A stretch of 64,000 nucleotides of DNA, taken from a bacterium. Lineage in GTDB: Bacteria; Patescibacteriota; Minisyncoccia; Phycocordibacterales; UBA5272. A model generated the notes under the pieces. The model made no database searches, had not been told where the DNA came from, and saw only the letters and a program-made list of their open reading frames with translations. The position numbers and the translations under genes were made by a program. Numbering within the stretch: position 1 is the first letter of the stretch; every line of letters starts with the position of its first letter. Where the stretch lies: the NCBI GenBank assembly GCA_043771335.1, contig JAYVHM010000003.1, forward strand, positions 29,268-93,267. Direction: 5' to 3'. Positions 11,210 through 58,022 of the stretch are shown piece after piece.

Positions 11210-11286
11210 TCTGTTTTAACACAGTAAATAAAAACTCTGAATAAGAAAAGTCACATATTGTGACTTTTTCTGTTATAATACATAAG

Positions 11287-25962: not shown

Positions 25963-26040
25963 TGTATTATATACAAGCTTCTAAACAAAATATAAAAACA
26001 AATATGAACTTGTTTTTATAAAACTAATTAAAATAAAAAT

Positions 26041-26469
26041 ATGAATCCAACTAAAAAAGTAAGTAAGAAAGTAAAGGTGCAGATAATGGCAGGTAAGGCA
26101 ATTCCTGCTCCGCCACTTGGTCCCGCCCTCGGACAGGCTGGTGTAAACATCGCAGACTTTACTAAAAAGTTCAACGATGCTACAAAAGACATGAAAGGTT
26201 TACTTTCTGTAAAGATCTATGCTTACGAGGATAGAACTTATGACTTTGTAGCTAAATCAGCGACAACAACAAGTATGATAAAAGAAGTTCTTGGCATGAA
26301 AAGCTTAAGTGCAAAACCAGGTATAACCAAAGCTGGTAAAATCACAAAAGCTCAAATCAAAGCAATAGCTGAGCATAAGATGGCTGACATGACTGCAAAT
26401 GATATCGCCGGAGCTATGAAAATAGTAGAAGGATCAGCAAGATCAATGGGTCTAGATATTGTGGCTTAA
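26041..26469 (+). CDS. rplK: 50S ribosomal protein L11
   Basis: AGKAIPAPPLGPALGQAGVNIADFTKKFN matches L11. rplA, normally next, is absent. Confidence 0.9.
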   Translation: MNPTKKVSKKVKVQIMAGKAIPAPPLGPALGQAGVNIADFTKKFNDATKDMKGLLSVKIYAYEDRTYDFVAKSATTTSMIKEVLGMKSLSAKPGITKAGKITKAQIKAIAEHKMADMTANDIAGAMKIVEGSARSMGLDIVA

Positions 26470-26489
26470 TATTTATAATATTTTTAGCA

Positions 26490-26530
26490 AAATAAAAGCG
26501 ACACCTTCGGCGTCGCTTTTATTTTGTGAT
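26490..26530 (+). terminator. Terminator after rplK overlapping the next promoter
   Basis: aaagcgacaccttcggcgtcgcttt hairpin; the T-run continues into TGATATAAT (26528-26536). Confidence 0.7.
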
Positions 26531-26541
26531 ATAATATACAA

Positions 26542-27048
26542 ATGAAAATAGAAGATATAAAAAATAATTTTACCCCATTAGATATTAATACTGGTCCTGG
26601 AGAAGATGCTTATGTTGACGGCGCAGAAATAGTAGAGAGGAATAACGTAGCATTAATAATAAAACACCCCACAGAAGAAAAGTATCTTATTTCAAAATGG
26701 AAACAAGTAGACTGGTCAGGATTTTTAACTGGTGGTATAGATGATGGTGAAAGCAAGGAAGACACTGCGAGAAAAGAATTAAAAGAAGAAAGCGGTTTTA
26801 AGAATATTAGGAATATAAAAGATATGAACTTTGCTTCGCACGGACTTTTCTATCAAGTAATAAAAAAACAAAATAGATTAGCTCATTATAATTTGGTTTT
26901 TATAGAGCTTGAAAATCTGGAACAAAATGAGGTGAGCGAAGAAGAGAAATTGATTTGTGATTTTATTTGGATAGACAAAGATGAGGTGATGGATAATCTT
27001 AAAAGAGATGATATGAAAAGTATTTGGGCATATTATCTTACGAATTAG
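26542..27048 (+). CDS. NUDIX hydrolase
   Basis: Nudix box GGIDDGESKEDTARKELKEESG (G-x5-E-x7-REuxEExGu). Leaderless start. Confidence 0.7.
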   Translation: MKIEDIKNNFTPLDINTGPGEDAYVDGAEIVERNNVALIIKHPTEEKYLISKWKQVDWSGFLTGGIDDGESKEDTARKELKEESGFKNIRNIKDMNFASHGLFYQVIKKQNRLAHYNLVFIELENLEQNEVSEEEKLICDFIWIDKDEVMDNLKRDDMKSIWAYYLTN

Positions 27049-39045: not shown

Positions 39046-39471
39046 ATGTTATTTCCAAAAAAAGTAAAATTCAGAAAGTGGCAGACTGCTCGCCTAAAAG
39101 GTGACAGACTAAATAGAGCAGACACAAAAGGTGTTGACGTTAACTTCGGATCATTTGCTCTAAAGGCAATGTCACAAGCCAGAGTTCTCTCTAATCAAAT
39201 AGAATCAGCAAGACGCGCTATGCAAAGAAAAGCAGGTAAAACTGCTCAGGTATGGATACGTATTTTCCCTGATCGTCCTATTACTAAAAAAGCTGCCGAA
39301 GTGCCGATGGGTAAAGGTAAGGGTAATCCAGAAGCATTTTGTTTCGAGGTTAGACCAGGACGTATACTATTTGAAATAGACGGAGTAGACGAGGCAACAG
39401 CCAGAGAAGCTCTCCGCAAAGCTGGCACAAAATTACCAGTTAAAACAAAAATAGTAGCACGTGCTAACTAA
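39046..39471 (+). CDS. rplP: 50S ribosomal protein L16
   Basis: [19 protein letters not shown]... typical of L16. Confidence 0.9.
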
Positions 39472-39487
39472 TCAAAATTATAAAATT

Positions 39488-39742
39488 ATGCAAACAGTAA
39501 AAAGACAATTAAAAGGTGTAGTTACTAGTGATAAGATGGACAAGACAGTAACTGTCAAAGTAGACAGATACGTTAAACATCCAAAATACGGTAAATACTA
39601 TACAACTTCAAAAAAATACAAAGCTCATGATGAAGCTAACGCTTTTAAGATCGGTGATGTGTTAATAATAGAAGAATCTAAACCAATATCAAAAGATAAA
39701 TCACATGTGGTTATCGAAAAGGTTGGTGAAGGAAAACAATAA
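39488..39742 (+). CDS. rpsQ: 30S ribosomal protein S17
   Basis: [30 protein letters not shown] typical of S17. No room for rpmC (L29) between rplP and rpsQ. Confidence 0.85.
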
Positions 39743-40416: not shown

Positions 40417-40452
40417 TCTCTAAGTCAAAGTTTTTACATAAAAAACAAAAAT

Positions 40453-40487
40453 AAAAGAGAGGCGCCCTACGGGTGCCTCTCTTTTAT
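40453..40487 (+). terminator. Strong terminator ending the ribosomal cluster after rplX
   Basis: aaagagaggcgccctacgggtgcctctcttt plus T-run. Confidence 0.7.
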
Positions 40488-40533
40488 TTCGACTTGCAAA
40501 AAGTGTATTTCTATACATTTAAGTGTTAGTACC

Positions 40534-43500
40534 ATGTTATACTTTATATTAAGTATGGAAGATAAATTAAACATGACAACAGAAGAAGTTAAAGAAGAAA
40601 AGAATCCTTCAGAGTCCCAAACTCCCCACTACCTTTATGGATTACTTTTTTTACTTTTTTTCATCTTGCTTATCCCTTTTGTTTTTACTAATTTTAAAGC
40701 TATATATAACAAAGATCTCAAGAATATCAGTAAGACAATTACCGGTATTAAGACAGAAATACAAGATCTAAATACAAAATATGTAAAAATGTCAGAGAAA
40801 ATAATTAACAACGCTACCACCACCACTACTACTGTAATAATCAAAGAGACACAGGCTCAGTATATACAAAAAGATACATCTCAAAATGTATTAACTGGCC
40901 TTAATAGAGACATTAATTCTAATACATTACTAAGTAGTGTGTCTAATGTTCCTCCTCCTTTGTTTGATGTTTCAAGTAGTAAAATAACTTATCAGTATAT
41001 ACCAGTAAGTAACGGATCCTCAGTAGGGGGAGCAACTGGTGCCACAGGAGCATCAGGAGCTGATGGAGTTGGCATTGCCAGCATCGCAACAACTTCTACT
41101 TCAACAATATTTACTTTGACAAATGGATCCACTACTCTTGTTTCTAGCTTAGAGGGGGCAACTTCTAGTGATTTTATTTATGCTACTGCAACTAATTTTA
41201 TATCATCTAATGCAAATATTACTAACTTCACAAATCAAAATGCTACCAGTGATATACTTTTTGCCACTTCATCTAACTTTGTTAATGCTACTTCTAGTAA
41301 TTTATTTACATATATTTTTCGCGCTTTGACTTCTTATTTTACAGATATCTTTACTATAAATTTGAATGCCTCTAACACCATAACTAATAATTTAATCTCA
41401 GCTTCATCAACACTTAATGGTACTACTACTATTGCCACTGCTTCTATTGGTAACTTCTATCAATTATTACAAAACTTTACAACAAACTTATTCTCTTCTG
41501 CAACGAACACTATATACTCTACAGTAAATGGAGTAGCAACATCAACAAACATCATTAACGCAAATACAATAAGTTTTGCTACGGCTACAAGTATTCTAAC
41601 TTCAAGTATAAATGGCATAATTTCTACAACATCTCTCTCTTTTTCAGTTCCCACATCATCGTCTGGGGGCCTGTATTACAAAGAGTCAACAGTTGCGCCA
41701 ACTACAGCACCAACAGCAACAGGAGTTAAGGCAGTGGCTATTGGTGACGGGGCACAAGCATCAGGACAAAGTTCTTCTGCTTTTGGATATGGAAGTATTG
41801 CCTCAGGGACAAATTCTCTCGCAATAGGATATATGAACATTGCAAGAGAAGAAGAATCTTATGTTTTTGGACGTAACAATGAGGCTTCGTGGTATGCTAT
41901 GGCAGTTGGTGCTTACAATTATGCTTTAGGTACGGACTCATTTGCTTTTGGTAACTTCAATACTGCATCAGCCATAAATTCGTCTGCTTTTGGGTATGAC
42001 AATGACTCTTCAGGTTATTACTCAATGTCTTTTGGTTACAGCAATGATACTTTAGGGATGTACTCTTCTTCTTTTGGAAGAAGCAATATCTCTTCAGGAC
42101 TTTACTCTAATGCTTTTGGTCTTAGTAACACTGCTTCAGGGACGGCTTCCATGTCTTTTGGATATTTAAATGTAGCAACAGGTGATAGTTCTATTGCTTT
42201 TGGGTACGTTAACAATTCTTCTGGAGAAGTCTCTTCTGCTTTTGGGGCACAAAATTTTGCTACAGCATATCATTCTTCTGCTTTTGGATATTTTAATTCT
42301 GCTGCAGCTACAAATTCTTCTGCCTTTGGATTCACAAACACAGCATCTGCCTCAGGGGCATCAGCTTTTGGGTCTAATATAACAAACAATATCACAAACT
42401 CAACAATGATAGGACCGTCTAACACTGCAAAGTTAACCATACTTTCTTCTGGCTTCATGGGTATAGGAACAACAACTCCTACAAATAGATTAACTATTTA
42501 TGCTGCTTCAGCAGACACTTCAGGACTTAGGTTAGAGAGATTAAAACCTTCATCAGCCGTAGCTACAACTACAGCTACTAAAATGTTAACAGTAGACACT
42601 AACGGTGACGTAGTTTTAACCAGTCTCAATGGTTCCTCATGGACATTAACAGGGAATAGTGGAACTAATGCTAACACTAGCTTTATAGGAACTACAGATG
42701 CTATTGACCTCAACTTCAGAGTGAATAATATATCTAACGGATCACTACAAGGCGTAAGTAAAAACACACTCTTTGGAGAAAGTGCTGGCCGCTCACTAGC
42801 CTCTACTACTGCAAGTAAATACAATGTAGGTATTGGTTATCAAGCATTTGGAACTACAACAGTTTCGAATACGGGAACTAATAATGTTGCTATTGGGAGA
42901 CTTTCATCATTTGATAATACATCGGGAAGTAATAATGTTGCTATTGGATACCAAGCAGGTAATGTCATTACAACAGGATCTAACAACCTAACCCTTGGTA
43001 ACAACGCCCAAGTCCCGACCTCTACTGCTTCTAACCAAATCCGTCTCGGAGATACCGCCATCACCTATGCTGGAATACAAGTAGCTTGGACTATAACCTC
43101 AGACTCTAGATTAAAAGAAAATATCAATACTATACCACTGGGCCTTTCATTCCTTAATACACTTCGTCCAGTAGAATATCACAGAATAAATAACATAAAC
43201 CCAGAGAAAGAATTCGGCTTCATAGCCCAAGAACTAGAGCAGTCACTAGCCTCATCTTCTTTCTCAGGATCAGGATTAGTTAACACCGATAGTAATGGCA
43301 TGAAATCAGTAAGATACAATGATTTATTCTCACCTATAGTAAAAGCTATACAAGAACTAGATGCAAAAGTAACTAATAATACTTTATCCACCACCACCAT
43401 TACTAACTTATTAGCTCTTGCTTCTACCACCAACTTAATAGGAGGTAATGTGGCTTATGCTACAGACATTGATATGCAAAATTATTCTATATTAAATGTT

Positions 43501-43815
43501 AAGGCTATAAGTAACTCAAATGGAAAGTGGAGTATTAGTGAGGAGGGGAGGATAGTGGCGAGGGAAGTGTGTCTGACTGATGACATCGGCACAGTGTGTG
43601 TGAACGCTAGTGACTTACGTCAGAAAAGTATGGGGACAAGTATAGATAATGTTGTGAATGTAGTCATCAGCACAAGTACAGCAACAACAACCTCAAGTAC
43701 CACCACAATATCAACTATTGAAAGTTGTGCTCTAACTAATCAAATATTAGACATTACAGTTATTCCAAATATGTGTATTGCTTCAGTCTCTGACCAAGTG
43801 TTAATTACTCCGTAA
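40534..43815 (+). CDS. Giant membrane-anchored fibre protein: collagen-like G-x-T stretch, YadA/Hep_Hag-like SxAFG repeats, phage tail-fibre-type C-terminal intramolecular chaperone (Peptidase_S74-like) domain
   Basis: N-terminal TM (LLFLLFFILLIPFVF). GATGATGASGADG. About 14 tandem repeats of x-S-S-A-F-G-Y-x-N (41.76-42.39 kb). GIGTTTPTNRLTI. SDSRLKENINTIPLGLSFLNTLRPVEYHRI...GFIAQELEQ...VRYNDLFSPIVKAIQELDAKV matches the autoproteolytic chaperone domain of endosialidase/tail-spike proteins. Real start may be an internal Met (40555 or 40573). Confidence 0.75.
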   Translation: MLYFILSMEDKLNMTTEEVKEEKNPSESQTPHYLYGLLFLLFFILLIPFVFTNFKAIYNKDLKNISKTITGIKTEIQDLNTKYVKMSEKIINNATTTTTTVIIKETQAQYIQKDTSQNVLTGLNRDINSNTLLSSVSNVPPPLFDVSSSKITYQYIPVSNGSSVGGATGATGASGADGVGIASIATTSTSTIFTLTNGSTTLVSSLEGATSSDFIYATATNFISSNANITNFTNQNATSDILFATSSNFVNATSSNLFTYIFRALTSYFTDIFTINLNASNTITNNLISASSTLNGTTTIATASIGNFYQLLQNFTTNLFSSATNTIYSTVNGVATSTNIINANTISFATATSILTSSINGIISTTSLSFSVPTSSSGGLYYKESTVAPTTAPTATGVKAVAIGDGAQASGQSSSAFGYGSIASGTNSLAIGYMNIAREEESYVFGRNNEASWYAMAVGAYNYALGTDSFAFGNFNTASAINSSAFGYDNDSSGYYSMSFGYSNDTLGMYSSSFGRSNISSGLYSNAFGLSNTASGTASMSFGYLNVATGDSSIAFGYVNNSSGEVSSAFGAQNFATAYHSSAFGYFNSAAATNSSAFGFTNTASASGASAFGSNITNNITNSTMIGPSNTAKLTILSSGFMGIGTTTPTNRLTIYAASADTSGLRLERLKPSSAVATTTATKMLTVDTNGDVVLTSLNGSSWTLTGNSGTNANTSFIGTTDAIDLNFRVNNISNGSLQGVSKNTLFGESAGRSLASTTASKYNVGIGYQAFGTTTVSNTGTNNVAIGRLSSFDNTSGSNNVAIGYQAGNVITTGSNNLTLGNNAQVPTSTASNQIRLGDTAITYAGIQVAWTITSDSRLKENINTIPLGLSFLNTLRPVEYHRINNINPEKEFGFIAQELEQSLASSSFSGSGLVNTDSNGMKSVRYNDLFSPIVKAIQELDAKVTNNTLSTTTITNLLALASTTNLIGGNVAYATDIDMQNYSILNVKAISNSNGKWSISEEGRIVAREVCLTDDIGTVCVNASDLRQKSMGTSIDNVVNVVISTSTATTTSSTTTISTIESCALTNQILDITVIPNMCIASVSDQVLITP

Positions 43816-43889
43816 AGAATATCAAATCTGTTAAAAAGTTATGAGATTAGACATATTATTATGTTATAATTAAGTATATAAAAATAAAT

Positions 43890-45434
43890 ATGAAAAACTT
43901 ACAAATCTTACGTAGAATTACTAATTACATGTTGCTGGCTTCACCAATACTCGTCTCATCTTTTTTTGCATATGCTTCAAAATATCCAGCCTGGGCTAAT
44001 ACTTTACTTTTAATAAGCTTATTTGCAGTATTGTTTTCATTTTTATTTTACACTAATTACAAAAACAAAAAAGAAGCCACTTTATTAGAGGTATCATTAC
44101 TTGTATTGTCTTTACTTTCTGCTATTGTATTTACTTTTTCTAGCTCCTCATCTTTTGTCTTTAATTTATTTGGAAAGGGGATACAGGAGTGGAGCGCTTC
44201 TTCTATTTTGGTTCTATTTTTAGCGGCTGCCTTCTTCATTTCTCTAAAAGGCAAATTAAACAAAATAGCCATAATAGCTTCTCTATCTGTCCTAACCTAT
44301 ACTGTAATTAATTACATACTTGTTAAAAATGGTGTAAGTATTGCGAATTATACAGCTTATATAAATATACCAATGCTTTCTTTTGCAAAGTTAATTAACT
44401 TACCTTTTGTTTTTACAATAGTTACTTTGCTTTTTTCACTTATTTCTTTTTACATAGAAAAGAAAAGCTTAATTTTTACTAAAATAGAAAATAAAAAATG
44501 GTATACAGTTATTCTGCTTTTGATATTATTACTAACTTCTTGTCTTTTGATTAGGAATGTTTTGAGATATGTGGCAGCAAATAATTATCTAAATGCATCT
44601 CAAGCTTTTTCAGAAAATAAAGTTTCTGAAGCTAAGACAAGCCTCAACAGGGCGATAAGTATAGCGCCTTTTGACGAGTATTATCTGGGTAGAATAGAAA
44701 TAACAACATCAGAAATAAATAATTTACTCGCTAGTAAATCTACTAACACAGCTGAATTACAAAATAATTACAAGACATTAGTAGAGTCTCAAATAAATGA
44801 TGCTCAAAAAGCGATAGCTTATGATAATAAAAATCCTAGAAATTATATGGCCCTAGGTCTCGCTTATGAGCGCTCTATGTTGCTATCAAAAGAAGATGGT
44901 TATACAAAATCTATCGAGGCTTATGAAAAAGCAAGAGAGCTTGCCAGTGATAAGGATTATGTGGATGTTGTAAAAGCAAAACTTTCTTTTGGAGTAGAAA
45001 AAGAATCTGAAGCATTGAAATATATAGATAATGCATTAAAATATAATTCATCGTCTTCACCGGCACTCTTCATATCTTCTCAGTATTATGCTTCTAAGAA
45101 TAATTTTAAATCAGCTATAGAGTATGGAGAAAAAGCAGTAATGACATCACCACAAGCAACAGATGCACGCCTTTCACTTGGTCTTTTATATCTACAAGAC
45201 AAGAGATATGATGCTGCAATACAGATGTTTGGCTCAGTATTACAGTTAACTAAGGGTGAAAATCTAGGAGCAATGTATTATCTTGGTGCAGCTTATAAAG
45301 CAAAAGGAGACATAGCTAATCTAAAATTAGTCATAGCAGAGCTAGACAAAAGAGTGGACCCAAATAGTAAAGAGATGAAAGATCTGAGAAGCGGTATTGG
45401 AGAATCTGAAGCAGAGAGCATTATAAAAAAGTAA
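43890..45434 (+). CDS. Polytopic membrane protein with C-terminal TPR repeats
   Basis: About 8 TM helices in the first 220 aa, then TPR-like A/Y/L periodicity (ALGLAYERS..., AIEYGEKAV..., YYLGAAYKAKGD). Confidence 0.5.
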   Translation: MKNLQILRRITNYMLLASPILVSSFFAYASKYPAWANTLLLISLFAVLFSFLFYTNYKNKKEATLLEVSLLVLSLLSAIVFTFSSSSSFVFNLFGKGIQEWSASSILVLFLAAAFFISLKGKLNKIAIIASLSVLTYTVINYILVKNGVSIANYTAYINIPMLSFAKLINLPFVFTIVTLLFSLISFYIEKKSLIFTKIENKKWYTVILLLILLLTSCLLIRNVLRYVAANNYLNASQAFSENKVSEAKTSLNRAISIAPFDEYYLGRIEITTSEINNLLASKSTNTAELQNNYKTLVESQINDAQKAIAYDNKNPRNYMALGLAYERSMLLSKEDGYTKSIEAYEKARELASDKDYVDVVKAKLSFGVEKESEALKYIDNALKYNSSSSPALFISSQYYASKNNFKSAIEYGEKAVMTSPQATDARLSLGLLYLQDKRYDAAIQMFGSVLQLTKGENLGAMYYLGAAYKAKGDIANLKLVIAELDKRVDPNSKEMKDLRSGIGESEAESIIKK

Positions 45435-45622: not shown

Positions 45623-48600
45623 ATGTCACAGGCCAAAAATAATAAAAGTGCTAACATTTCTGTAGCACTTTTACCAAAAAAGACTTTCAAAAAATATAGA
45701 AAGCCACTTATAGATTTACCAAATCTTGTCGAGAATCAACTAGCTTCATACAGATCTTTAGTTGACAAAGAGATGCCTGAAATCTTCAAAGAGTTCAGTC
45801 CTATATCAGACTATTCTGCAAAGAAATTCGACCTTGAGTTCCTATCTTTTGATATAGGGGCTCCAAAATACGATGAAGTGTACGCAAAAGAAAACAAGCT
45901 TTCTTATGAAGCTCCTATGCGTGGAAAGATTAGGCTTACTAACAAAACTTTAAATACCAAAAAAGAACAAGAAATATTCTTGGCTGATTTCCCTGTAATG
46001 ACTGTGCATGGAACGTTTATCGTGAATGGTGTAGAGCGTGTAGTGGTGCCTCAGCTCGCTCGTTCATTTGGTGTGTTTTTTGATACAGAAGAAGTAAAAG
46101 GTAAAAGATATTTTATCGCAAAGGTTATACCAAGTCGTGGTTCATGGTCAGAAGTTCTGTCAGAACCAGAAGATAATATCAGTGTCAGAATAGACAAGAA
46201 AAGAAAGTTCGGAATGATAACTCTGTTACGTGCTTTTGGATTTTCTACAGATGAGGCAATATTAAAAGCTTTTTCAGAAGAGACAAGAGATTTTGTAAAA
46301 GCAATGATTGATCGTGAGCATGTAAAAACTGTGACTGAAGCTTATGTAGAAATCTACAAAAAACTTCGTGATGGTGATATGGCAACTCCTGAAAATGCAA
46401 AAGAGTATTTTGATGGACTTTTTTCAAAAGAGAGATATGACATTTCTCCCGTTGGTCGTTTTCGTTTTAATAAGAGATTCAATCTTCCAAATGATGCTAA
46501 GAATGCTTCAAAGAACTTAACTAAGGAGGATGTTGTAAAAATAGTAGAAGAGATAATTAGATTAAACAGAAATCCAGAAAGTAAAGCTGATGATATAGAC
46601 CATTTAGGCTCTAGACGTGTTCGTTTTGTGGGAGAGATGATGGCACAACAAGTTCGTAAGGGTATGTTACAAATGAAGAGAAATATACAAGACAAGATGT
46701 CTGTTATTGACATTGAAACTACTTTACCTATTACTGTTGTAAATCAACGCCCATTACAAGCTCGTATTAAGGAGTTCTTTACAGTAAATCAACTTTCACA
46801 ATTCATGGATCAGGAGAATCTTCTTTCTGAAATCGAGAACTTAAGAACTCTCTCAGCCTTAGGTCCCGGAGGTTTAACTCGTGAGCGTGCAGGTTTTGAA
46901 GTGCGTGACGTGCACACATCACATTATGGTCGTGTATGTCCTATTCAGACACCAGAAGGTCCAAATATTGGTCTTATTTTGAGACAGGCTAATTATGCTC
47001 GTATCAACGAGTTTGGTATTATCGAGACACCGTACGCCAAAGTTAAAAATGGTAAGATTACTACTGAAGTAGTATACATGAACGCTTTTGAAGAAGAGAG
47101 ACATGTTATAGCTCCTCTTTCTGTAAATTACGGAAAAGATATGAAGATAACCGGTGAGCGTATAGCTGCTAGAAAATATGCGCAACCAGCAATAGTGGGA
47201 ATAGATGAAATAGAGTTCGTAGAAGTTTCTACCAATCAAGCATACAGTATAGCAACATCTATGATTCCATTTTTAGAGCATAATGACGCCAACCGTGCGC
47301 TGATGGGTAGTAACATGCAGAGACAGGCTGTGCCACTAATGTGTCCAGATGCTCCACTAGTATCAACTGGCATGGAGGCAGAAGCTGCAAAGTTTTTAGG
47401 ACGTCTAGTGTACGCTAAAAATGAAGGAGAGGTAAAATACGTTGATGCTAAAAAAGTTATTATAAGAGTCGGAAAGAAAGATGAAGAGTATCCACTTATT
47501 ACTTTTTCAAAAACAAATGTATTTAACATGTTCCATCACAGACCAGTAGTTAATGTTGGCGATGTTGTAAAAGTTGGTGACCTATTAGCTGATGCGTCAA
47601 CATCAATAGATGGACAAATAGCTCTTGGTCAAAATGCTCTTGTTGCCTTCATGGCGTGGAATGGCAGTAACTATGAGGACGCTATTATACTCTCTGAGAG
47701 ATTAGTAAAAGACTCAAAGTTTTCATCTATACACATAGAAGAGTTCATATGTAATGTACGCGATACAAAGCTAGGTGCCGAAGTAACAACACATGACATA
47801 CCTAATGTAAGCGAGAATAAATTACGTAATCTTGATGAAGATGGAGTAATTAGAATCGGTGCTGAAGTATTGCCAGGTGATATATTGGTAGGTAAAATCA
47901 CACCAAAGGGTGAGACAGAGCTTTCACCAGAAGAAAGATTACTTAGAAGTATTTTTGGAGAAAAAGTTCGTGATGTAAAAGATTCATCATTAAGATTAGA
48001 TAATGGAAAACGTGGACGTATTATAGGTATCAAAATATTTAGTCGTGAGAGAGGTGATAATCTTGAGTCTGGTATCATAAAGAGAATACACATAGAAGTA
48101 GCACAAATCAGAAACATTACAGTAGGTGATAAGCTCGCTGGTCGCCACGGTAACAAAGGTGTTATCAGTCGCGTATTGCCAGTAGAGGAGATGCCATACA
48201 TGGCTGATGGTACACCGGTAGACATATTACTTACTCCACTTGGTATTCCTTCTCGTATGAATCTAGGGCAGATACTTGAAATGCATTTAGGTTATGCTGC
48301 TGACAAGCTTGGCTATCAAGCAGTGGTGCCAGCATTCCAAGGTGCGAGCGTAGAGGAGATACAAGAAGAATTAGTAAAAGCAGGAATGGATAAATCGGGA
48401 ACGACTACATTATTTGACGGTCGTACTGGTGAGGCTTTTGAAAATCCTATTGCAGTCGGACAAATGTACATGTTAAAACTCCATCACATGGTAGAAGATA
48501 AACTTCATCAACGCTCTATAGGTCCATACTCATTAATCACTCAGCAACCACTAGGAGGTAAGGCTCAGGGTGGAGGACAGAGATTTGGAGAGATGGAGGT

Positions 48601-48877
48601 CTGGGCACTCGAGGGTTACGGAGCTGCTCACACCCTGCGCGAGATGTTAACTGTAAAATCAGACGATATAGAAGGACGCTCTGCAACATATGATGCAATT
48701 ATAAAAGGCACAGAAATGGAAGAGCCAGGTACACCAGCATCATTTGTGGTGATGTTAAACAATCTTCGTGGTCTTGGTCTTGATGTTACTCCTATTAATA
48801 GTAAAGCCGGAGAAGAAGGAGAAGAGTTAATCGGAGATGGAATTATAAATGAGCAAGTAAGAGAAGATAGAAGATAA
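45623..48877 (+). CDS. rpoB: DNA-directed RNA polymerase subunit beta
   Basis: 1084 aa with conserved blocks GRHGNKGVISRVLP, NMQRQAVPL, PSRMNLGQ. Confidence 0.95.
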   Translation: MSQAKNNKSANISVALLPKKTFKKYRKPLIDLPNLVENQLASYRSLVDKEMPEIFKEFSPISDYSAKKFDLEFLSFDIGAPKYDEVYAKENKLSYEAPMRGKIRLTNKTLNTKKEQEIFLADFPVMTVHGTFIVNGVERVVVPQLARSFGVFFDTEEVKGKRYFIAKVIPSRGSWSEVLSEPEDNISVRIDKKRKFGMITLLRAFGFSTDEAILKAFSEETRDFVKAMIDREHVKTVTEAYVEIYKKLRDGDMATPENAKEYFDGLFSKERYDISPVGRFRFNKRFNLPNDAKNASKNLTKEDVVKIVEEIIRLNRNPESKADDIDHLGSRRVRFVGEMMAQQVRKGMLQMKRNIQDKMSVIDIETTLPITVVNQRPLQARIKEFFTVNQLSQFMDQENLLSEIENLRTLSALGPGGLTRERAGFEVRDVHTSHYGRVCPIQTPEGPNIGLILRQANYARINEFGIIETPYAKVKNGKITTEVVYMNAFEEERHVIAPLSVNYGKDMKITGERIAARKYAQPAIVGIDEIEFVEVSTNQAYSIATSMIPFLEHNDANRALMGSNMQRQAVPLMCPDAPLVSTGMEAEAAKFLGRLVYAKNEGEVKYVDAKKVIIRVGKKDEEYPLITFSKTNVFNMFHHRPVVNVGDVVKVGDLLADASTSIDGQIALGQNALVAFMAWNGSNYEDAIILSERLVKDSKFSSIHIEEFICNVRDTKLGAEVTTHDIPNVSENKLRNLDEDGVIRIGAEVLPGDILVGKITPKGETELSPEERLLRSIFGEKVRDVKDSSLRLDNGKRGRIIGIKIFSRERGDNLESGIIKRIHIEVAQIRNITVGDKLAGRHGNKGVISRVLPVEEMPYMADGTPVDILLTPLGIPSRMNLGQILEMHLGYAADKLGYQAVVPAFQGASVEEIQEELVKAGMDKSGTTTLFDGRTGEAFENPIAVGQMYMLKLHHMVEDKLHQRSIGPYSLITQQPLGGKAQGGGQRFGEMEVWALEGYGAAHTLREMLTVKSDDIEGRSATYDAIIKGTEMEEPGTPASFVVMLNNLRGLGLDVTPINSKAGEEGEELIGDGIINEQVREDRR

Positions 48878-48926
48878 ATTATAAACTCAGATCCTTTAAA
48901 GCTCTAAAAACAAAAACATAAAAAAT

Positions 48927-51900
48927 ATGAAAACAATAGATACAAAAAATTTCGATTCTCTCTCAATAAAAATCGCTTCTCCAGAAGCTATTAGATCTTG
49001 GAGTTTTGGTGAAGTAACAAAGCCAGAAACTATAAATTATAGAACAGGACGCAGTGAACGTTATGGACTTTTTGATGAGAAAATCTTTGGTCCAGAAAAG
49101 GACTATGAATGTTATTGCGGTAAATACCGTCGTATTCGTTATAAAGGTATTATCTGTGAAAAATGTGGAGTAGAAGTATGTAAAAGTATAGTTCGTCGTG
49201 AGCGTATGGGTCACATTGAACTTGCTGTTCCTGTGTCACATATATGGTTCCTTCGTAATGTACCATCACGTATCGCTATGATACTCGGTTCAACTCTTTC
49301 TGATGTAGAAAAAGTTGTATACTTTGCAGGTTACATTATTACTCATGTTAATCAAGAGGAAAAGAAAAATGTAATTAGTAGTTTAGAATCAGAGTTCAAA
49401 TCAAAAATAAAATCAGCACAAGACGATAAGACAAAAGACAGACTGAATGAATTAATGAAAGAAGCAAAAGACGAGATAGACAATATCAAGCCTTGGAAAA
49501 TCCTAGATGAGATGGTGTATCACAGATATGCTATGAAGTATGGATCATGTTTTGATGCAAAGATAGGTGCTGAGGCAGTGCATGAAGTATTTTCAAAAAT
49601 AGACCTTGCGGTATTAGAAGCTGAGCTAGTGGAAAGACTGGCAAATAGTGGAGCTACAGAGCGTGAGAAATTAGAAAAGAGATTGTCACTAGTAAAAGCT
49701 TTTCGTAATGCAGGAATCAGACCAGAGTGGATGTTCATCAAGGCATTGCCTGTAACTCCTCCTGGCATTAGACCTATGGTTGCGCTTGAAGGTGGACGCC
49801 ACGCAACGTCTGACGTTAATGATTTATACAGAAGGGTCATCAACAGAAACACTCGTCTTAAAAAATTAATGGAAATAGATGCGCCAGATGTTATTCTTAG
49901 AAATGAAAAACGTATATTACAAGAGGCTATAGATGCATTGATTGATAACAGTGCTCGCCATGGTGATGCTGCTGTTGCCTTAACAGGACAAAAGAGAGTT
50001 TTAAAATCACTTTCTGACTCACTAAAAGGAAAGTCAGGACTTCTTCGTGGTAACCTTTTGGGTAAACGTGTTGATTATTCTGCTCGTTCGGTTATTGTGG
50101 TTGGTCCAGAGCTAACTCTTGAGGAGTGTGGACTTCCAAAGTTCATGGCCCTTGAATTATTCAAGCCATTCGTAATTTCAAAATTAATAGCTAGAGAGTT
50201 TACTTATAATATTCGTGGAGCAAACAAATTAATAGAAGATAGTATACCAGAAGTGTGGGCAATATTAGAAGAGGTGATACAAGATAAGTATGTATTACTC
50301 AACCGTGCGCCAACACTACACAGATTAGGTATACAAGCTTTTAAGCCAAGACTAATAGAGGGACGTGCCATACAACTTCATCCACTTGTGTGTGAGGCAT
50401 TCAACGCTGATTTTGACGGAGACCAGATGGCAGTACATTTACCGCTTTCTCCTCTCGCTCAAAAGGAGGCTCGTGAATTGATGGCGGCGCACAGAAACTT
50501 ATTAAAACCAGGATCAGGACAACCAATTGTAAATCCTCGTATGGATATGGTTCTAGGTATGTACTGGATGACTAAGATGGTAGCAGGTGAAAAAGGTGAA
50601 GGTAAATTCTTTGCTAGTGCTAATGAGGCTATTACTGCGCGTGATTTTGATGCTGTATCACTTCGTGCCAGCATAAAAATAATGCCAAGTGACAAGGAGA
50701 AATATGTAGCCTTTGAAGGAAAAATATTTGACACTACAGTAGGTAGACTATTATTCAACTCTATATTCCCAGCAAGTTACCCATACATCAATGAAGTTGT
50801 TGATAAGAAGAAAATCAACACTATCATGGAGGATATATTTGCAAAATATGGTGTAGAAGAAGCTCCAAAGATAATCGACAAGATGAAAGCTTTTGGATTC
50901 AAGTACGCTGGAGTATCAGGAACAACTTGGAACTTAACAGCTGTTGAGGTGCCAGTAGAAAAAGATGCTTTGATACAAAAAGGATGGGATAAAGTAAGTC
51001 AAATCAATGATGACTTTAACGAAGGTCTACTTTCTAACGATGAGAGATATGGTAAAACTATAGATAATTGGCAAGTAATTAGAAAGGAGATTGAGGTTGT
51101 CTTACAAAAAGATTTGGATACTAACAAATCTTCTTCGGTTAATGACCTTATAACTTCTGGTGCTCGTGGATCAATGTCACAGTTAATTCAGTTAGCGGGT
51201 ATGAAGGGTATAATCGTGAATAATTCAGGAGGTCAATCAGACTTCCCAGTTATCGCCTCTAACATTGAGGGCTTGTCTCCAGTTGAATACTTTATTACAA
51301 CTTACGGTGCTCGTAAAGGTAACTCGGACACGGCACTTAAAACTGCTCAGGCAGGATACCTTACTCGTCGTCTAGTTGACGTAGCCCAAGATGCTATTAT
51401 TACTGAGGATGATTGTAAGACTGAAAACTTTAAAACATTCAGAAGACAAAATGTTCTAGGTCAAAATGCTTCTATATCAAAAGGTGTGAGAGGTAGAATC
51501 TTAGCAAAAGATGTAACTTGTGGTGACGTGTCTTATAAAAAAGGACAGTTAATAACAACAAAAGAAGGAGAGCAGATGGAAGCTTCAAGTATCACAGAAG
51601 TATCTGTATTCACCCCTATGTACTGTAATTCTGTGCACGGTGTATGTAAAAAATGTTATGGACTAGACATGGGCCGTAACAACATGGTGAAGATGGGTGA
51701 GGCAGTAGGTATCGTCGCAGCGCAGGCTATCGGTGAGCCAGGAACTCAGCTAACTATGCGTACATTCCACTCTGGAGGTGTGGCAGGTACTGACATCACT
51801 CAGGGTCTCCCTCGTATCGATGAGATCTTTGAGAGAAGAGCTCCAAAATCACCAGCGAATATCGCACATGAAAATGGAGAAGTTTTTGATGTTAGAAATG

Positions 51901-52514
51901 AAAATGGAGAGAAGACTATTGTAATCCTAATGGACGAGAATGAATCTAAGGGTAATAAAAAAGGTAAGATGGTAGAATATACAGTATTGCCTCGTCGTTC
52001 TGTTTTAGTTAAAAAAGGAGACAAGATTGTGAAGGGTCAGATCATGACTGACGGATCGTGTGATATTGAGGAGGTGTTTAAAAATGCTGGACGTGAAGCT
52101 GCTGAGGATTATGTAGTATCAGAAATCTTAAAAGTGTATGAGCTCCAAGGTGCGGCTATTTCTAGAAAGCATATTGAGATCATCATCAAGCAAATGATGG
52201 GACGTGTTAAAATCACAAAGGGTGGCTCAACAAGATTCTCTCAAGGAGATACGGTTGAGATATCAACTCTTCGTAATGAGAACACTATCGCTCTTGATAA
52301 TGCAGGCACAGCAGCCGAGTATAACAGTGTGATGATGGGTATATCAGACGTAGCCTTAACGACTACATCATGGTTATCATCTGCATCATTCCAAAACACT
52401 ACTCGCGTGCTTATCGCAGCGTCTACTCGTGGACAGATAGATAATCTGATGGGATTAAAAGAAAATGTAATCATTGGTAAGTTAATACCAGCTGGTACAG
52501 GAAAAGTTTCTTAA
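48927..52514 (+). CDS. rpoC: DNA-directed RNA polymerase subunit beta'
   Basis: 1195 aa. Zinc finger CYCGKYRRIRYKGIICEKCGVEV, NADFDGDQMAVHLP catalytic motif. Confidence 0.95.
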   Translation: MKTIDTKNFDSLSIKIASPEAIRSWSFGEVTKPETINYRTGRSERYGLFDEKIFGPEKDYECYCGKYRRIRYKGIICEKCGVEVCKSIVRRERMGHIELAVPVSHIWFLRNVPSRIAMILGSTLSDVEKVVYFAGYIITHVNQEEKKNVISSLESEFKSKIKSAQDDKTKDRLNELMKEAKDEIDNIKPWKILDEMVYHRYAMKYGSCFDAKIGAEAVHEVFSKIDLAVLEAELVERLANSGATEREKLEKRLSLVKAFRNAGIRPEWMFIKALPVTPPGIRPMVALEGGRHATSDVNDLYRRVINRNTRLKKLMEIDAPDVILRNEKRILQEAIDALIDNSARHGDAAVALTGQKRVLKSLSDSLKGKSGLLRGNLLGKRVDYSARSVIVVGPELTLEECGLPKFMALELFKPFVISKLIAREFTYNIRGANKLIEDSIPEVWAILEEVIQDKYVLLNRAPTLHRLGIQAFKPRLIEGRAIQLHPLVCEAFNADFDGDQMAVHLPLSPLAQKEARELMAAHRNLLKPGSGQPIVNPRMDMVLGMYWMTKMVAGEKGEGKFFASANEAITARDFDAVSLRASIKIMPSDKEKYVAFEGKIFDTTVGRLLFNSIFPASYPYINEVVDKKKINTIMEDIFAKYGVEEAPKIIDKMKAFGFKYAGVSGTTWNLTAVEVPVEKDALIQKGWDKVSQINDDFNEGLLSNDERYGKTIDNWQVIRKEIEVVLQKDLDTNKSSSVNDLITSGARGSMSQLIQLAGMKGIIVNNSGGQSDFPVIASNIEGLSPVEYFITTYGARKGNSDTALKTAQAGYLTRRLVDVAQDAIITEDDCKTENFKTFRRQNVLGQNASISKGVRGRILAKDVTCGDVSYKKGQLITTKEGEQMEASSITEVSVFTPMYCNSVHGVCKKCYGLDMGRNNMVKMGEAVGIVAAQAIGEPGTQLTMRTFHSGGVAGTDITQGLPRIDEIFERRAPKSPANIAHENGEVFDVRNENGEKTIVILMDENESKGNKKGKMVEYTVLPRRSVLVKKGDKIVKGQIMTDGSCDIEEVFKNAGREAAEDYVVSEILKVYELQGAAISRKHIEIIIKQMMGRVKITKGGSTRFSQGDTVEISTLRNENTIALDNAGTAAEYNSVMMGISDVALTTTSWLSSASFQNTTRVLIAASTRGQIDNLMGLKENVIIGKLIPAGTGKVS

Positions 52515-56966: not shown

Positions 56967-58022
56967 ATGATTTTTTTCGACAATCTTAAAAATAAATTCT
57001 CAAATGAAATAGGCATAGACCTAGGTACTGCGAACACTCTCGTATATGTTCGTGGTGTAGGTATAGTTATAAACGAGCCATCGGTAGTTGCAGTGAATGT
57101 AAAGACAGACAGAATAGTGGCCATAGGAGAAGCAGCAAAACAAATGATGGGACGCACACCAACACATATAAAATGTGTACGTCCATTAGTTGATGGCGTG
57201 ATTAGTGATTATGAGGTAACAGAGGAGATGCTTAGCTATTTGATTAACAAAGCCAACAGCATACACAAGAAAATATTAAGACCAAGAGTAGTAGTAGGTG
57301 TCCCAGTTGGTATTACGAACGTTGAGACACGCGCGGTGTATGATGCTGCGCGCGCCGCAGGCGCGCGCGAAGTATACATTATAGAGGAACCTATGGCAGC
57401 AGCTATTGGTATAAAGATGCCAGTGCATGATGCAGAAGGGTCAATGATAGTAGATATAGGAGGAGGGACAACAGACGTTGCCGTCATATCTCTTTCTGGT
57501 ATAGTTAAGGCTAAATCACTTAAAATAGCAGGAGATAAAATAAGTAGTGATATTATCTCTTATTTAAAAGATGAATACAAAATACAAATAGGAGAAAAAA
57601 CAGCTGAAGAGATAAAAGAGCAAATAGGTTCAGCCATGCCAATAGGAGAACCGGTAGAAGTCAGTATCAAAGGTCGTGACATGGTAAGCGGATTACCAAA
57701 AGAAATATTTGTGAGCGATAGTGATATTAGAAAAAGTATGTATTCATCTATATCTCAAATCATAGACTGTGTACGTGAAGTTATAGAGATGACACCTCCA
57801 GAGGTTCTAACAGATATTATGAGAAAGGGTATCACTTTGTCGGGTGGTGGAGCTTTGATTCGTGGACTGGACGAGTTGATGCGCATACAATTAAAAGTGC
57901 CAGTTAATATTTGTGATGACCCATTAACAGCTGTGGCGCGTGGTTGTGGTATAATCTTAGAAGACGTAAGTAAATACAAAGATGTATTAATAAAAGACCA
58001 TGAAGAGATCTCATACAGATAA
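56967..58022 (+). CDS. mreB: Rod shape-determining protein MreB
   Basis: IGIDLGTANTLVYVRG, DIGGGTTDVAVISL, actin-fold ATPase. Start at the second Met, 21 nt after TGTTATAAT. Confidence 0.9.
   Translation: MIFFDNLKNKFSNEIGIDLGTANTLVYVRGVGIVINEPSVVAVNVKTDRIVAIGEAAKQMMGRTPTHIKCVRPLVDGVISDYEVTEEMLSYLINKANSIHKKILRPRVVVGVPVGITNVETRAVYDAARAAGAREVYIIEEPMAAAIGIKMPVHDAEGSMIVDIGGGTTDVAVISLSGIVKAKSLKIAGDKISSDIISYLKDEYKIQIGEKTAEEIKEQIGSAMPIGEPVEVSIKGRDMVSGLPKEIFVSDSDIRKSMYSSISQIIDCVREVIEMTPPEVLTDIMRKGITLSGGGALIRGLDELMRIQLKVPVNICDDPLTAVARGCGIILEDVSKYKDVLIKDHEEISYR

What the first reader, a model, noticed from the sequence alone, without database searches (positions are those of the whole stretch)
40534..43815. 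Membrane-anchored giant fibre with a phage tail-fibre intramolecular chaperone domain, inserted where the spc operon should continue
The 1093-aa protein has an N-terminal TM anchor and a short collagen-like G-x-T run. It has Thr/Ser/Asn-rich repeats and about 14 SxAFG(Y)xN repeats reminiscent of YadA/Hep_Hag head repeats. Its C-terminal SDSRLKEN...GFIAQELEQ...AIQELDAKV block matches the autoproteolytic intramolecular chaperone (Peptidase_S74-like) of phage tail spikes and endosialidases. About 230 aa lie beyond the predicted cleavage serine. No other phage gene (integrase, capsid, terminase) is nearby, and the protein is cell-anchored. This looks like a domesticated tail-fibre-type surface adhesin rather than a prophage. 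It sits directly after the rplX terminator, in place of rplE-rpsN-rpsH-...-secY. For a putative episymbiotic small-genome bacterium, such fibres are plausible host-attachment structures.
Basis: partly seen in the sequence, partly recalled or inferred. Interest (0 to 1): 0.7.

Follow-up and report, generated by a model that had tools for sequence, protein, structure and literature searches.

The report
Membrane-anchored phage-like surface fibre in Parcubacteria
A tiny, probably host-dependent bacterium encodes in its chromosome a long cell-anchored fibre built from adhesin-type and phage-tail-fibre-type parts, most likely for sticking to other cells; similar fibres are already known in the predator Bdellovibrio, so this is a new variant, not a new kind.

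Summary
ORF 40534-43815 encodes a 1093-aa protein. It has one N-terminal TM segment, 16-17 YadA-head-type 14-residue repeats (Pfam 63.5 bits) and a Peptidase_S74 intramolecular-chaperone domain (42.3 bits) with an intact S856/K861 dyad. No phage gene lies in the 64 kb. The organism is a Patescibacteria/Parcubacteria bacterium.

The spc story needs correcting. A sister genome (RpoB 98%) has the same rplX-TPR-rpoB junction without the fibre. Its orthologue (89% identity over the alignable 651 codons, same dS as rpoB) lies between typA and dnaB. So the operon break does not depend on the fibre, which is a clean 3.39 kb indel with no mobile-element marks. A 93% relative carries a differently built fibre upstream of the same TPR-rpoB pair.

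The gene is under purifying selection (dN/dS 0.125).

The 130 aa beyond S74 contain a separable module of about 60 aa with an invariant Cys pair. It occurs in 382 protein clusters, mostly without S74, has no Pfam model and no PDB fold match.

The closest known system is the Bdellovibrio MAT fibre family, in which S74 self-cleavage and prey binding were shown. Verdict: a new variant of a known kind.

The parts
40449..40489 (+). Intrinsic terminator of the S10-operon remnant after rplX: 19-nt arms, 3-nt loop, T-run
   Evidence: inverted repeat I2, 95% complementary. The sister genome has a different but equivalent hairpin at the same place.
40467..43858 (+). 3.39 kb segment (fibre gene plus short flanks) that is present here and replaced by 13 bp in the sister genome L087. 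BLAST boundaries are approximate because the terminator stems have diverged.
   Evidence: the flanks are colinear at 88-93% nt identity; no flanking direct or inverted repeats; no plasmid match.
40534..43815 (+). Fibre gene, 1093 aa
   Evidence: Exact protein is present in ENA and NCBI assemblies (P0001). Purifying selection, dN/dS 0.125.
40630..40692 (+). Single N-terminal transmembrane / signal-anchor segment (aa about 33-53)
   Evidence: The orthologue P0002 has a Lys-rich N-flank followed by a TM segment.
40693..41718 (+). Stalk region (aa 54-395): helical segment (aa about 54-115), Ser/Thr-rich linker, 5 G-x-x triplets (aa 166-180) and Thr/Ser/Asn-rich region. Fold unknown.
   Evidence: Searches give only weak helical-protein hits. 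There is no Pfam domain. At DNA level only the last part aligns with P0002.
41719..42423 (+). YadA-head-type repeats, 16-17 x 14 residues (aa about 396-630)
42424..42633 (+). Connector (aa 631-700) with the motif 'SNTAKLTILSSGFMGIGTTTP', shared with many relatives. It is the most constrained part (dN/dS 0.03).
42634..43098 (+). Second repeat region 'N-x-A-x-G...' (aa 701-855), directly before S74. Presumed trimeric beta-helix.
   Evidence: 50-64% identity to bacterial 'tail fiber domain-containing' proteins. PHROG tail spike and virion structural protein hits. Phage tblastn hits to aa 741-946.
43099..43428 (+). Peptidase_S74 / intramolecular chaperone auto-processing domain (aa 856-965). Predicted nucleophile S856 (43099-43101) and base K861 (43114-43116).
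   Evidence: Dyad definition from PMC3742443.
43456..43638 (+). Separable post-S74 module (aa about 975-1035): NVK-x-I...GKWSI...C-x8-C plus a short helix. Invariant W999, G1005, C1013 and C1022.
   Evidence: AF2 core pLDDT 79-95. No PDB fold match, no Pfam model and no phage match.
43639..43812 (+). Low-complexity Thr/Ser-rich C-terminal tail with a second Cys pair (C1065, C1081). Predicted disordered.
43890..45434 (+). Downstream multi-TM + TPR protein (514 aa). It is conserved upstream of rpoB in sister genomes whether or not the fibre is present, so it is probably not fibre-specific.

Best explanation
The gene encodes a chromosomal cell-envelope fibre of a Parcubacteria (CPR/Patescibacteria) bacterium, not a phage part.

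Proposed mechanism:
1. The protein is inserted through its single N-terminal signal-anchor, with the other roughly 1040 residues outside the cell.
2. Three chains are brought into register at their C-terminal ends by the S74 intramolecular chaperone domain.
3. This nucleates folding of the preceding beta-helical repeats and the YadA-type beta-roll head into a homotrimeric fibre.
4. Once trimerised, the S856/K861 dyad cuts the chain before S856. This releases a 238-aa fragment made of the chaperone, the Cys-pair module and the tail.
5. The mature fibre (aa 1-855) stays anchored in the membrane by its N-terminus.
6. The fibre binds surfaces of other cells (host or prey) or substrata.

The gene evolves by module duplication and swapping and changes its chromosomal location between close relatives, as expected of a host-interaction determinant.

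Shown: the domain identities, the intact catalytic motif, the non-phage context, purifying selection, the indel and relocation, and the modular variation. Inferred: the topology, trimerisation, cleavage and adhesion.
For: - Domains: YadA_head and Peptidase_S74 are above the curated cut-offs. There are PDB hits to TAA heads and to S74-containing fibres including MYRF ICA.
- Structure: the S74 fold model has pLDDT >90 and matches 3gw6, 3gud and 161 viral S74 proteins.
- Catalytic motif: S-D-x-R-x-K is in place in 118 of 127 relatives. S, D, R and K are nearly invariant. The dyad is defined in PMC3742443.
- Anchor: a single N-terminal TM segment. The orthologue P0002 has a positively charged N-flank followed by a TM segment, and other relatives have cleavable-looking signal peptides.
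- Extracytoplasmic location: the invariant Cys pair in the C-terminal module, together with a DsbB gene in the window, fits an extracytoplasmic location.
- Context: 64 kb of housekeeping genes with no phage genes or tRNA. Relatives also sit in housekeeping contexts.
- Functional gene: dN/dS is 0.125 overall and 0.03-0.22 per region. dS (0.54) equals that of rpoB and rpoC.
- Variability: the window has one head module and P0002 has two. L088 has a beta-propeller and an Ig-like end. Chromosomal position differs between genomes with 98% RpoB identity.
- Precedent: Bdellovibrio MAT fibres lie on the predator surface. Thirteen of 21 end in S74 with SDxxxK, self-cleavage was shown at S782 of Bd3182, and glycan binding was shown (PMC10769870).
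- Envelope: CPR-sized cells appear to lack an outer membrane and attach to hosts by filamentous appendages (PMC7906910).
Against: - Topology is not settled. In this protein the residues before the TM segment are net acidic and those after it are Lys-rich, so the positive-inside rule does not clearly favour N-in/C-out. No dedicated topology predictor was available.
- S74 domains can fold in the cytoplasm, as in phage fibres and MYRF, so the domain alone does not prove an external location.
- Relatives in this lineage carry conserved, selected sequence after S74: the module, and in L088, P0056 and P0301 an Ig-like domain. This is odd for a fragment that is simply discarded.
- No trimer model, no expression data and no binding data exist.
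- No convincing promoter was found upstream of the gene.
Confidence: 0.6

Rival explanations
1. The S74 domain acts here only as a permanent trimerisation clamp and does not cleave, or the cleaved fragment stays bound. The conserved Cys-pair module, plus the Ig-like domain in relatives, is then the functional distal tip or an envelope-attachment element of the fibre.
For: - The extension is under purifying selection (dN/dS 0.22).
- The module is found in 382 clusters, about 80% of them without S74. It always lies near the C-terminus of very large proteins.
- Relatives add a bacterial surface Ig-like domain after it.
- From Ser to the C-terminus is 238 aa here, against a median of 125 aa in relatives.
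Against: - The Ser/Lys dyad and the Arg are conserved in every module-bearing S74 relative examined: window, P0002, P0056, L088 and P0301.
- In every S74 protein tested experimentally the domain cleaves (PMC3742443; PMC10769870).
Confidence: 0.15
2. The protein is exported or anchored but is not a host adhesin. It forms a protective or structural coat, matrix or biofilm fibre. Alternatively, the N-terminal hydrophobic segment is a cleaved signal peptide and the fibre is released from the cell.
For: - Some relatives have cleavable-type signal peptides instead of anchors (P0013, P0006).
- Record names of related assemblies (GFS, BUSI22) suggest stream-biofilm metagenomes. That reading rests on the names alone.
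- Nothing here identifies a ligand.
Against: - YadA-type heads and S74-terminated fibres are, where studied, ligand-binding adhesins or receptor-binding proteins.
- Rapid architectural turnover between near-identical genomes fits a recognition role better than a bulk structural one.
Confidence: 0.15
3. It is the tail fibre of a prophage remnant, a tailocin, or an extracellular contractile injection system encoded elsewhere in the genome.
For: - PHROG hits to tail spike and virion structural protein families.
- S74 is typical of phage fibres.
- Extracellular contractile injection system fibres can carry S74, to judge from the term counts of a search hit that was not read (PMC12923769).
Against: - There are no phage or contractile injection system genes within 40 kb upstream or 20 kb downstream, nor near any homologue examined.
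- An N-terminal TM anchor is not a feature of virion fibres.
- dS equals that of the core genome, so the gene is vertically inherited.
- Only 6 of 50,697 phage records match, at about 35% identity.
- The C-terminal module is absent from all phage records.
Confidence: 0.05

Closest known systems
Bdellovibrio bacteriovorus MAT (mosaic adhesive trimer) fibre superfamily (Caulton et al. 2024, PMC10769870)
   Same: Both are chromosomal, non-phage, cell-surface fibres of a bacterium that lives on other bacteria. Both have a beta-helical region ending in an S74 domain with an SDxxxK motif. For the MAT protein Bd3182, self-cleavage was shown experimentally. Both have S74 and non-S74 subfamilies that share other parts, both are mosaic with swappable modules, and MAT proteins carry the same 'phage tail fibre / cell wall anchor' annotations.
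   Different: MAT proteins have a signal peptide followed by a conserved N-terminal beta-rich domain of about 130 aa for surface attachment. The window protein has a TM signal-anchor and a Ser/Thr-rich stalk. MAT S74 members terminate in S74, whereas this one has a further 130 aa containing a distinct Cys-pair module. The paper does not mention YadA-type repeats in MATs (0 occurrences of 'YadA'). Bdellovibrio is a diderm and CPR cells appear to lack an outer membrane. No sequence link to solved MAT fragments was found.
Phage tail fibres and tail spikes with a C-terminal intramolecular chaperone domain (K1F endosialidase 3GW6, GA-1 neck appendage 3GUD, T5 L-shaped fibre, T4-like gp37 tip 6F45)
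   Same: The S74 domain, the Ser/Lys dyad, its position after beta-helical repeats, and the predicted fold.
   Different: This protein is not in a phage genome. It carries an N-terminal membrane anchor in place of a virion-attachment domain. It has a TAA-type head. It has extra conserved sequence after the chaperone that is absent from phage records.
Trimeric autotransporter adhesins (YadA, UspA1, BpaC, CbpF; type Vc secretion)
   Same: 14-residue YadA-head repeats, with significant sequence similarity to solved heads.
   Different: There is no YadA_anchor beta-barrel, no YadA_stalk and no ESPR signal. Anchoring is at the N-terminus in the cytoplasmic membrane, not at the C-terminus in an outer membrane. 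Trimerisation is presumably driven by S74 and not by the anchor barrel.
MYRF (eukaryotic membrane-bound transcription factor with an ICA/S74 domain; PMC3742443, PMC8326128)
   Same: A cellular, membrane-anchored protein that uses the phage-type ICA domain with a Ser/Lys dyad. A profile hit to 7dc3 scores E 5.9e-7.
   Different: In MYRF the TM segment lies C-terminal to the ICA domain, so cleavage frees the N-terminal cargo from the membrane. Here the TM segment is N-terminal, so cleavage would leave the fibre anchored and free only the C-terminal fragment.
'Tail fiber domain-containing protein' genes of Bacteroidota and Ignavibacteria (PGAP annotation)
   Same: The beta-helix plus S74 block is 50-64% identical. 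Several also combine YadA_head with S74.
   Different: They are mostly short (150-450 aa) or have different N-terminal parts. They end about 100-150 aa after the Ser and lack the Cys-pair module.

Membership tests
[quoted passage not shown] | Match to the family HMM above the curated threshold | tested here: met
   PF13884 scores 42.3 bits against a cut-off of 22, E 9.6e-11. Profile hits to solved S74-bearing proteins: 6f45 at 4.4e-11, 8jov at 3.8e-10 and MYRF 7dc3 at 5.9e-7.
[quoted passage not shown] | Catalytic Ser and Lys five residues apart (SDxxxK), plus a conserved Arg | tested here: met
   S856-D-S-R859-L-K861. S, D, R and K are at least 90% conserved in a 67-sequence alignment. The motif is in place in 118 of 127 relatives. 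Definition from PMC3742443 and PMC10769870.
[quoted passage not shown] | Characteristic fold (short strands plus a long helix that forms a trimeric bundle) | tested here: met
   AF2 monomer model with pLDDT >90. The top PDB hits are 3gw6 (probability 0.99, but E 0.09) and 3gud. There are 161 BFVD hits at E<=1e-3, rmsd about 2-3 A over 100-130 residues. The trimer itself was not modelled.
[quoted passage not shown] | Autoproteolytic release of the C-terminal domain after trimerisation | not testable with these tools
   This needs expression of wild type against S856A or K861A.
Trimeric autotransporter adhesin (type Vc) | YadA-type head repeats | tested here: met
   PF05658 scores 63.5 bits in 8 stretches. 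PDB hits to TAA heads.
Trimeric autotransporter adhesin (type Vc) | C-terminal YadA_anchor 12-stranded beta-barrel in an outer membrane | tested here: not met
   There is no PF03895 hit at E<=1. The C-terminus is S74 plus module plus a disordered tail. True TAAs among the hits do carry PF03895.
Trimeric autotransporter adhesin (type Vc) | Coiled-coil YadA_stalk / neck elements | tested here: not met
   No PF05662 hit.
Bdellovibrio MAT fibre superfamily | Fibre ending in an S74 domain with SDxxxK (S74 subfamily), preceded by a beta-helix | tested here: inconclusive
   The motif and domain are present. However, the protein does not terminate in S74, and the upstream repeats were not modelled as a trimeric beta-helix.
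Bdellovibrio MAT fibre superfamily | Conserved beta-rich domain of about 130 aa immediately after the signal peptide | not testable with these tools
   No MAT N-terminal sequence or model was available here. The window protein instead has a TM segment, a helical segment and a Ser/Thr-rich stalk with no Pfam domain.
Collagen-like protein | Extended G-X-Y repeat tract detected by the Collagen model | tested here: not met
   Only 5 triplets (aa 166-180) and no PF01391 hit.
Prophage or phage-derived particle gene cluster | Neighbouring capsid, terminase, portal, tail or integrase genes, and attachment-site signatures | tested here: not met
   All neighbours over 64 kb are housekeeping or small unknown genes. 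There is no tRNA and there are no flanking repeats. The same holds for the loci of homologues.

The most novel reading that the evidence does not exclude
The roughly 60-aa Cys-pair module after S74 (NVK-x-I...GKWSI...C-x(4-8)-C-V...L, followed by a low-complexity tail) may be an undescribed C-terminal sorting, envelope-attachment or assembly tag shared by hundreds of giant surface proteins of CPR-type bacteria. In the S74-containing members, autoproteolysis would act as a built-in release step that separates the finished fibre from this tag. This would amount to a lineage-specific, sortase-independent surface-display pathway for organisms whose envelope biogenesis is essentially unknown.
Probability: 0.2. 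Interest if true: 0.75.

Novelty: new variant of a known kind. Interest (0 to 1): 0.55.

Why it matters
How Patescibacteria recognise and hold on to their hosts is largely unknown beyond type IV pili in Saccharibacteria. This locus gives a concrete, testable candidate in Parcubacteria. It is a self-assembling trimeric fibre that needs no dedicated secretion or chaperone partner, which suits a minimal genome. It is built like the prey-recognition fibres of Bdellovibrio and the receptor-binding proteins of phages.

Between genomes with 98% identical RpoB, the fibre changes its architecture and its chromosomal position. That marks it as a probable host-range determinant. The conserved C-terminal module, found in 382 protein clusters, offers a sequence handle for cataloguing the surface-protein repertoire of these organisms.

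Tried and rejected
1. **Collagen domain:** rejected. Only 5 triplets and no Pfam hit.
2. **True TAA:** rejected. No anchor or stalk domain.
3. **Prophage:** rejected on context.
4. **T9SS sorting domain after S74 in Bacteroidota-like relatives (P0005, P0022), as a parallel to the CPR module:** this came from reading the sequences. NCBIfam and the precomputed Pfam lists do not support it, so it was dropped.
5. **Functional linkage of the fibre to the downstream TPR membrane protein:** the TPR proteins near three of the four fibre genes examined are homologous. However, the sister genome keeps TPR-rpoB without the fibre, so linkage is not supported.
6. **Mobile-element signatures at the indel:** none, and no plasmid match.
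7. **Reference-genome scan with the whole fibre:** returned only one locus, the P0002 genome.
8. **Source names for the window's proteins and for module carriers:** none on record. The taxonomy of most module carriers therefore remains unverified. Only P0004 (Candidatus Yonathbacteria) and the window lineage are placed.
9. **afdb50 fold library:** unavailable.
11. **Promoter scan:** no convincing promoter for the fibre gene.
12. **Second fibre copy at the typA-dnaB site of the window genome:** could not be checked, because that region lies outside the window.


Full report
**1. The observation**

The ORF at 40534-43815 (+) is real and encodes 1093 aa. The identical protein is on record in ENA and NCBI assemblies. 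The window lies on a 115.6 kb metagenomic contig.

A hydropathy scan finds exactly one hydrophobic segment, at aa about 33-53. The protein is Thr/Ser/Asn-rich throughout. The 'collagen-like' run is only five G-x-x triplets (aa 166-180), and Pfam Collagen does not hit it.

The S-x-A-F-G motifs are part of 16-17 consecutive 14-residue repeats (aa 400-630) in almost perfect register. Residue autocorrelation is 0.41 at lag 14. The matching 42-nt DNA periodicity has only 61-78% identity, so the repeats are old.

Pfam YadA_head (63.5 bits against a cut-off of 25) and Peptidase_S74 (42.3 bits against 22; aa 856-905) are both significant. The head region also matches solved TAA heads by sequence: CbpF, YadA, BpaC and UspA1.

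A profile of the C-terminal block matches solved S74-bearing proteins. These include a T4-like long-tail-fibre tip, tail spikes and the MYRF ICA domain. An AlphaFold2 model of aa 840-1093 has pLDDT >90 across aa 856-964. Its best PDB matches are the endosialidase and GA-1 intramolecular chaperones. Its E-values are weak, as expected for a monomer model of an intertwined trimer. It also has 161 matches at E<=1e-3 among predicted viral S74/ICA proteins.

The sequence T-S856-D-S-R-L-K861 carries the Ser/Lys dyad five residues apart. S, D, R and K are at least 90% conserved among 67 aligned relatives. The motif is in place in 118 of 127 relatives.

**2. Context**

The whole 64 kb is ordinary chromosome: fusA, ftsZ/ftsA, secA, nusG-rplK, argS, tuf, rpsJ to rplX, rpoB/rpoC, dnaG, rpoD, mreBC, PBP2, greA and alaS. 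There is no tRNA. The unknown ORFs I scanned show no phage domains. GC content of the fibre gene (0.34-0.37) is within the window's range.

A strong hairpin and T-run follow rplX at 40449-40489.

Named RpoB relatives at 73-80% identity are all Patescibacteria, Parcubacteria, Paceibacterota or Nomurabacteria. One fibre relative is from Candidatus Yonathbacteria. The CPR assignment therefore holds.

**3. The spc-operon claim**

In all 37 related metagenomic loci with enough downstream sequence, rplN-rplX is followed by ORFs of about 185, 61, 130, 180 and 120 aa. The same is true of the closest short contigs. The first of these ORFs is L5 by Pfam in the three loci checked. The break after rplX is therefore specific to this lineage.

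The fibre, however, is not its cause. The sister genome GCA_043718735.1 (RpoB 98%, ribosomal proteins 96-100% identical) has tuf, the S10 operon, rplN, rplX, the TPR protein, rpoB, rpoC and dnaG in the same order, with nothing between rplX and the TPR gene.

The two genomes are colinear at 88-93% nucleotide identity, except that window 40467-43858 (3.39 kb) corresponds to 13 bp in the sister. The indel lies between the rplX terminator and the extended -10 promoter-like element of the TPR gene. It has no flanking direct or inverted repeats and matches no plasmid.

The sister's fibre gene (P0002, 1319 aa) is on another contig, between typA/bipA and dnaB. Over 651 alignable codons the two fibres are 89% identical, with dS 0.54. 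That falls within the genome's range: rpoB 0.61, rpoC 0.49, dnaG 0.92 and TPR 1.12. They therefore look like orthologues that now sit at different loci, not independent acquisitions.

A relative with 93% RpoB identity has a fibre homologue of at least 1681 aa upstream of the same TPR-rpoB pair. Its architecture differs: a beta-propeller-like domain, YadA head, S74, the same post-S74 module at 59% identity, and a C-terminal bacterial-surface Ig-like domain. That contig ends inside the gene, so linkage to rplX is unknown there. A 78% relative has neither a fibre nor a TPR gene upstream of rpoB. Two more distant fibre relatives lie next to pilin-like genes and tpiA/pgk, and upstream of a TPR protein and gyrA. 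None of these loci contains phage genes.

**4. Selection and variability**

dN/dS is 0.125 for the fibre, against 0.012-0.021 for rpoC and rpoB. By region it is 0.16 for the head, 0.03 for the connector, 0.10 for the beta-helix, 0.10 for S74 and 0.22 for the extension. The gene is functional throughout, including the part beyond the predicted cleavage site, but it is much less constrained than core genes.

Architecture changes between near-identical genomes. P0002 has two copies of the head-plus-connector module, the N-terminal 250 aa or so are not alignable, and L088 has other modules.

**5. Relatives of the parts**

The YadA_head + S74 combination recurs in at least 14 other protein clusters, some from Bacteroidota.

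The beta-helix + S74 block is 50-64% identical to chromosomal 'tail fiber domain-containing proteins' of Flavobacteriia, Ignavibacteria and others. Only 6 of 50,697 phage records match, at about 35% identity over aa 741-946. The block is therefore a cassette circulating among bacterial genomes. Derivation from a phage is plausible in the long run but is not demonstrated for this gene.

**6. The sequence beyond S74**

From the nucleophile Ser to the C-terminus, relatives have a median of 125 aa, and nearly all have 100-150. This protein has 238, P0002 about 264 and P0056 309.

The extra part contains a separable module (aa about 975-1035). P0145 and the Yonathbacteria protein P0004 have it without any S74 domain. 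A five-sequence profile run against 1.84 billion representative proteins finds 382 clusters at E<=1e-3 and 37 at 1e-10. The module nearly always lies 60-200 aa from the C-terminus of large proteins of up to 4158 aa.

Only 30 of the 151 proteins checked (the listed hits plus five already-known carriers) also have S74. In most of the non-S74 carriers I inspected the module follows a beta-rich domain of about 130 aa and precedes a Pro/Glu/Thr-rich tail. Six carriers have no Pfam hit at all.

The invariant Cys pair, together with a DsbB gene in the window, suggests a disulfide and hence an extracytoplasmic location.

**7. Mechanism proposed**

The protein is inserted by its N-terminal signal-anchor. 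The three C-terminal S74 domains associate and template folding of the upstream beta-structures into a trimer. The assembled Ser/Lys sites then cut before S856. The fibre (aa 1-855) remains membrane-anchored, and the C-terminal fragment leaves or stays loosely bound.

This follows the established behaviour of S74/ICA domains. The dyad and an oxyanion Arg become active only after trimerisation (PMC3742443). It also follows the Bdellovibrio MAT fibres, where 13 of 21 surface fibres end in S74, Bd3182 self-cleaves at S782, and one MAT binds prey glycans (PMC10769870).

CPR-sized cells appear to lack an outer membrane and attach to hosts through filamentous appendages (PMC7906910). Giant membrane proteins with adhesion domains have already been proposed as host-interaction factors in other Patescibacteria (PMC13059738).

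Topology, trimerisation, cleavage and ligand binding are all inferences here.

The main weak points are two:
- The charge distribution around the TM segment is ambiguous in this particular protein, although its orthologue has a classical positively charged N-flank.
- Conserved, selected sequence after a supposedly disposable chaperone is unexplained.

**8. Classification**

The protein contains a bona fide S74/ICA domain and bona fide YadA-head repeats. It is not a trimeric autotransporter, because it has no anchor barrel and no stalk. It is not a collagen-like protein and not a phage gene.

Functionally and architecturally it is closest to the MAT fibres. It differs from them in its anchor, its head and its C-terminal extension. 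Membership of that superfamily could not be tested for the defining N-terminal domain.

I found no paper linking S74 domains to CPR bacteria. I rate it a new variant of a known kind.

**9. Scores**

Interest is 0.55. It is a solid and biologically meaningful candidate host-recognition fibre in a poorly understood phylum, and it comes with an undescribed, widespread C-terminal module. The general principle, phage-type self-processing fibres on bacterial surfaces, is already established.

Noticed in passing
window 39471-39488 (between rplP and rpsQ): There is no room for rpmC (L29). The L16-S17 gap is 16 nt here and at most 16 nt in 5 of 64 related loci, including the closest (L007, L015). The other 59 loci have a gap of 177-616 nt that could hold L29. 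L29 may be lost or relocated in this sublineage.
   Followed up: partly
window 25243-27048 and 45623-52514: nusG-rplK is followed by a NUDIX hydrolase and dcd, not by rplA-rplJ-rplL. rpoB-rpoC lie 19 kb away, behind the truncated S10 operon. The usual rplKAJL-rpoBC and S10-spc clusters are both rearranged. No rplA is seen in the window.
   Followed up: no
window 43890-45434; L087:8282-9829; L088:5190-6746; L005:4827-7205: A multi-TM + TPR protein is conserved directly upstream of rpoB in the close relatives. A homologous TPR protein (E 9e-18) follows the fibre gene in a Yonathbacteria genome. Its function is unknown, and it is not specifically linked to the fibre.
   Followed up: partly
P0319, P0324, P0327, P0343, P0312 (module carriers of 2069-3563 aa): Several giant proteins that carry the C-terminal Cys-pair module start with a conserved HTH-like sequence, 'ISL.EA.K.SGY(S/T)AEY.R.LCV.GK..G.KIGKSW'. 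A DNA-binding-like N-terminus on a giant surface-type protein is odd.
   Followed up: no
P0004 aa about 1230-1360, P0145 aa 1-95, and many module carriers: [quoted passage not shown] Its motif is 'GVVST.PG...PVAL.GRVPVKV..ENG.I..GD.LT.S..PG.AMKA...G.ALE...ILVFVNL'. P0327 has both S74 and this domain. There is no Pfam hit in the carriers scanned.
   Followed up: partly
window 1956-2507 (-); L002:16662-17219 (-): DsbB-family genes are present in the window (PF02600, E 4e-8) and near the sister's fibre gene. These small-genome bacteria keep an extracytoplasmic disulfide-forming system, which is consistent with Cys pairs in their surface proteins.
   Followed up: no
window 58000-58815 against L087:21766-22590: MreC is only 74-75% identical between the two genomes (dN/dS 0.17), while MreB next to it is 98.6% identical. 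This is unusually fast evolution for a cell-shape protein.
   Followed up: no
L089:11042-12259: An HNH_5 endonuclease gene (405 aa) is inserted between dnaG and rpoD in one contig of the 93% relative. It is absent from the otherwise identical L088 arrangement. This is strain-level indel variation.
   Followed up: no
L016:1292-2178; L018:11447-12127: In two of the closer Parcubacteria relatives, non-ribosomal ORFs follow rplE inside the spc operon. Interruptions of this cluster seem to recur in the group.
   Followed up: no
window 11260-12606, 19494-20009, 20072-20725: Other probably secreted proteins lie in the window: a coiled-coil + SLT lytic transglycosylase, an Excalibur Ca-binding domain protein and a CAP-family protein. 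They could be further envelope or host-interaction factors.
   Followed up: no
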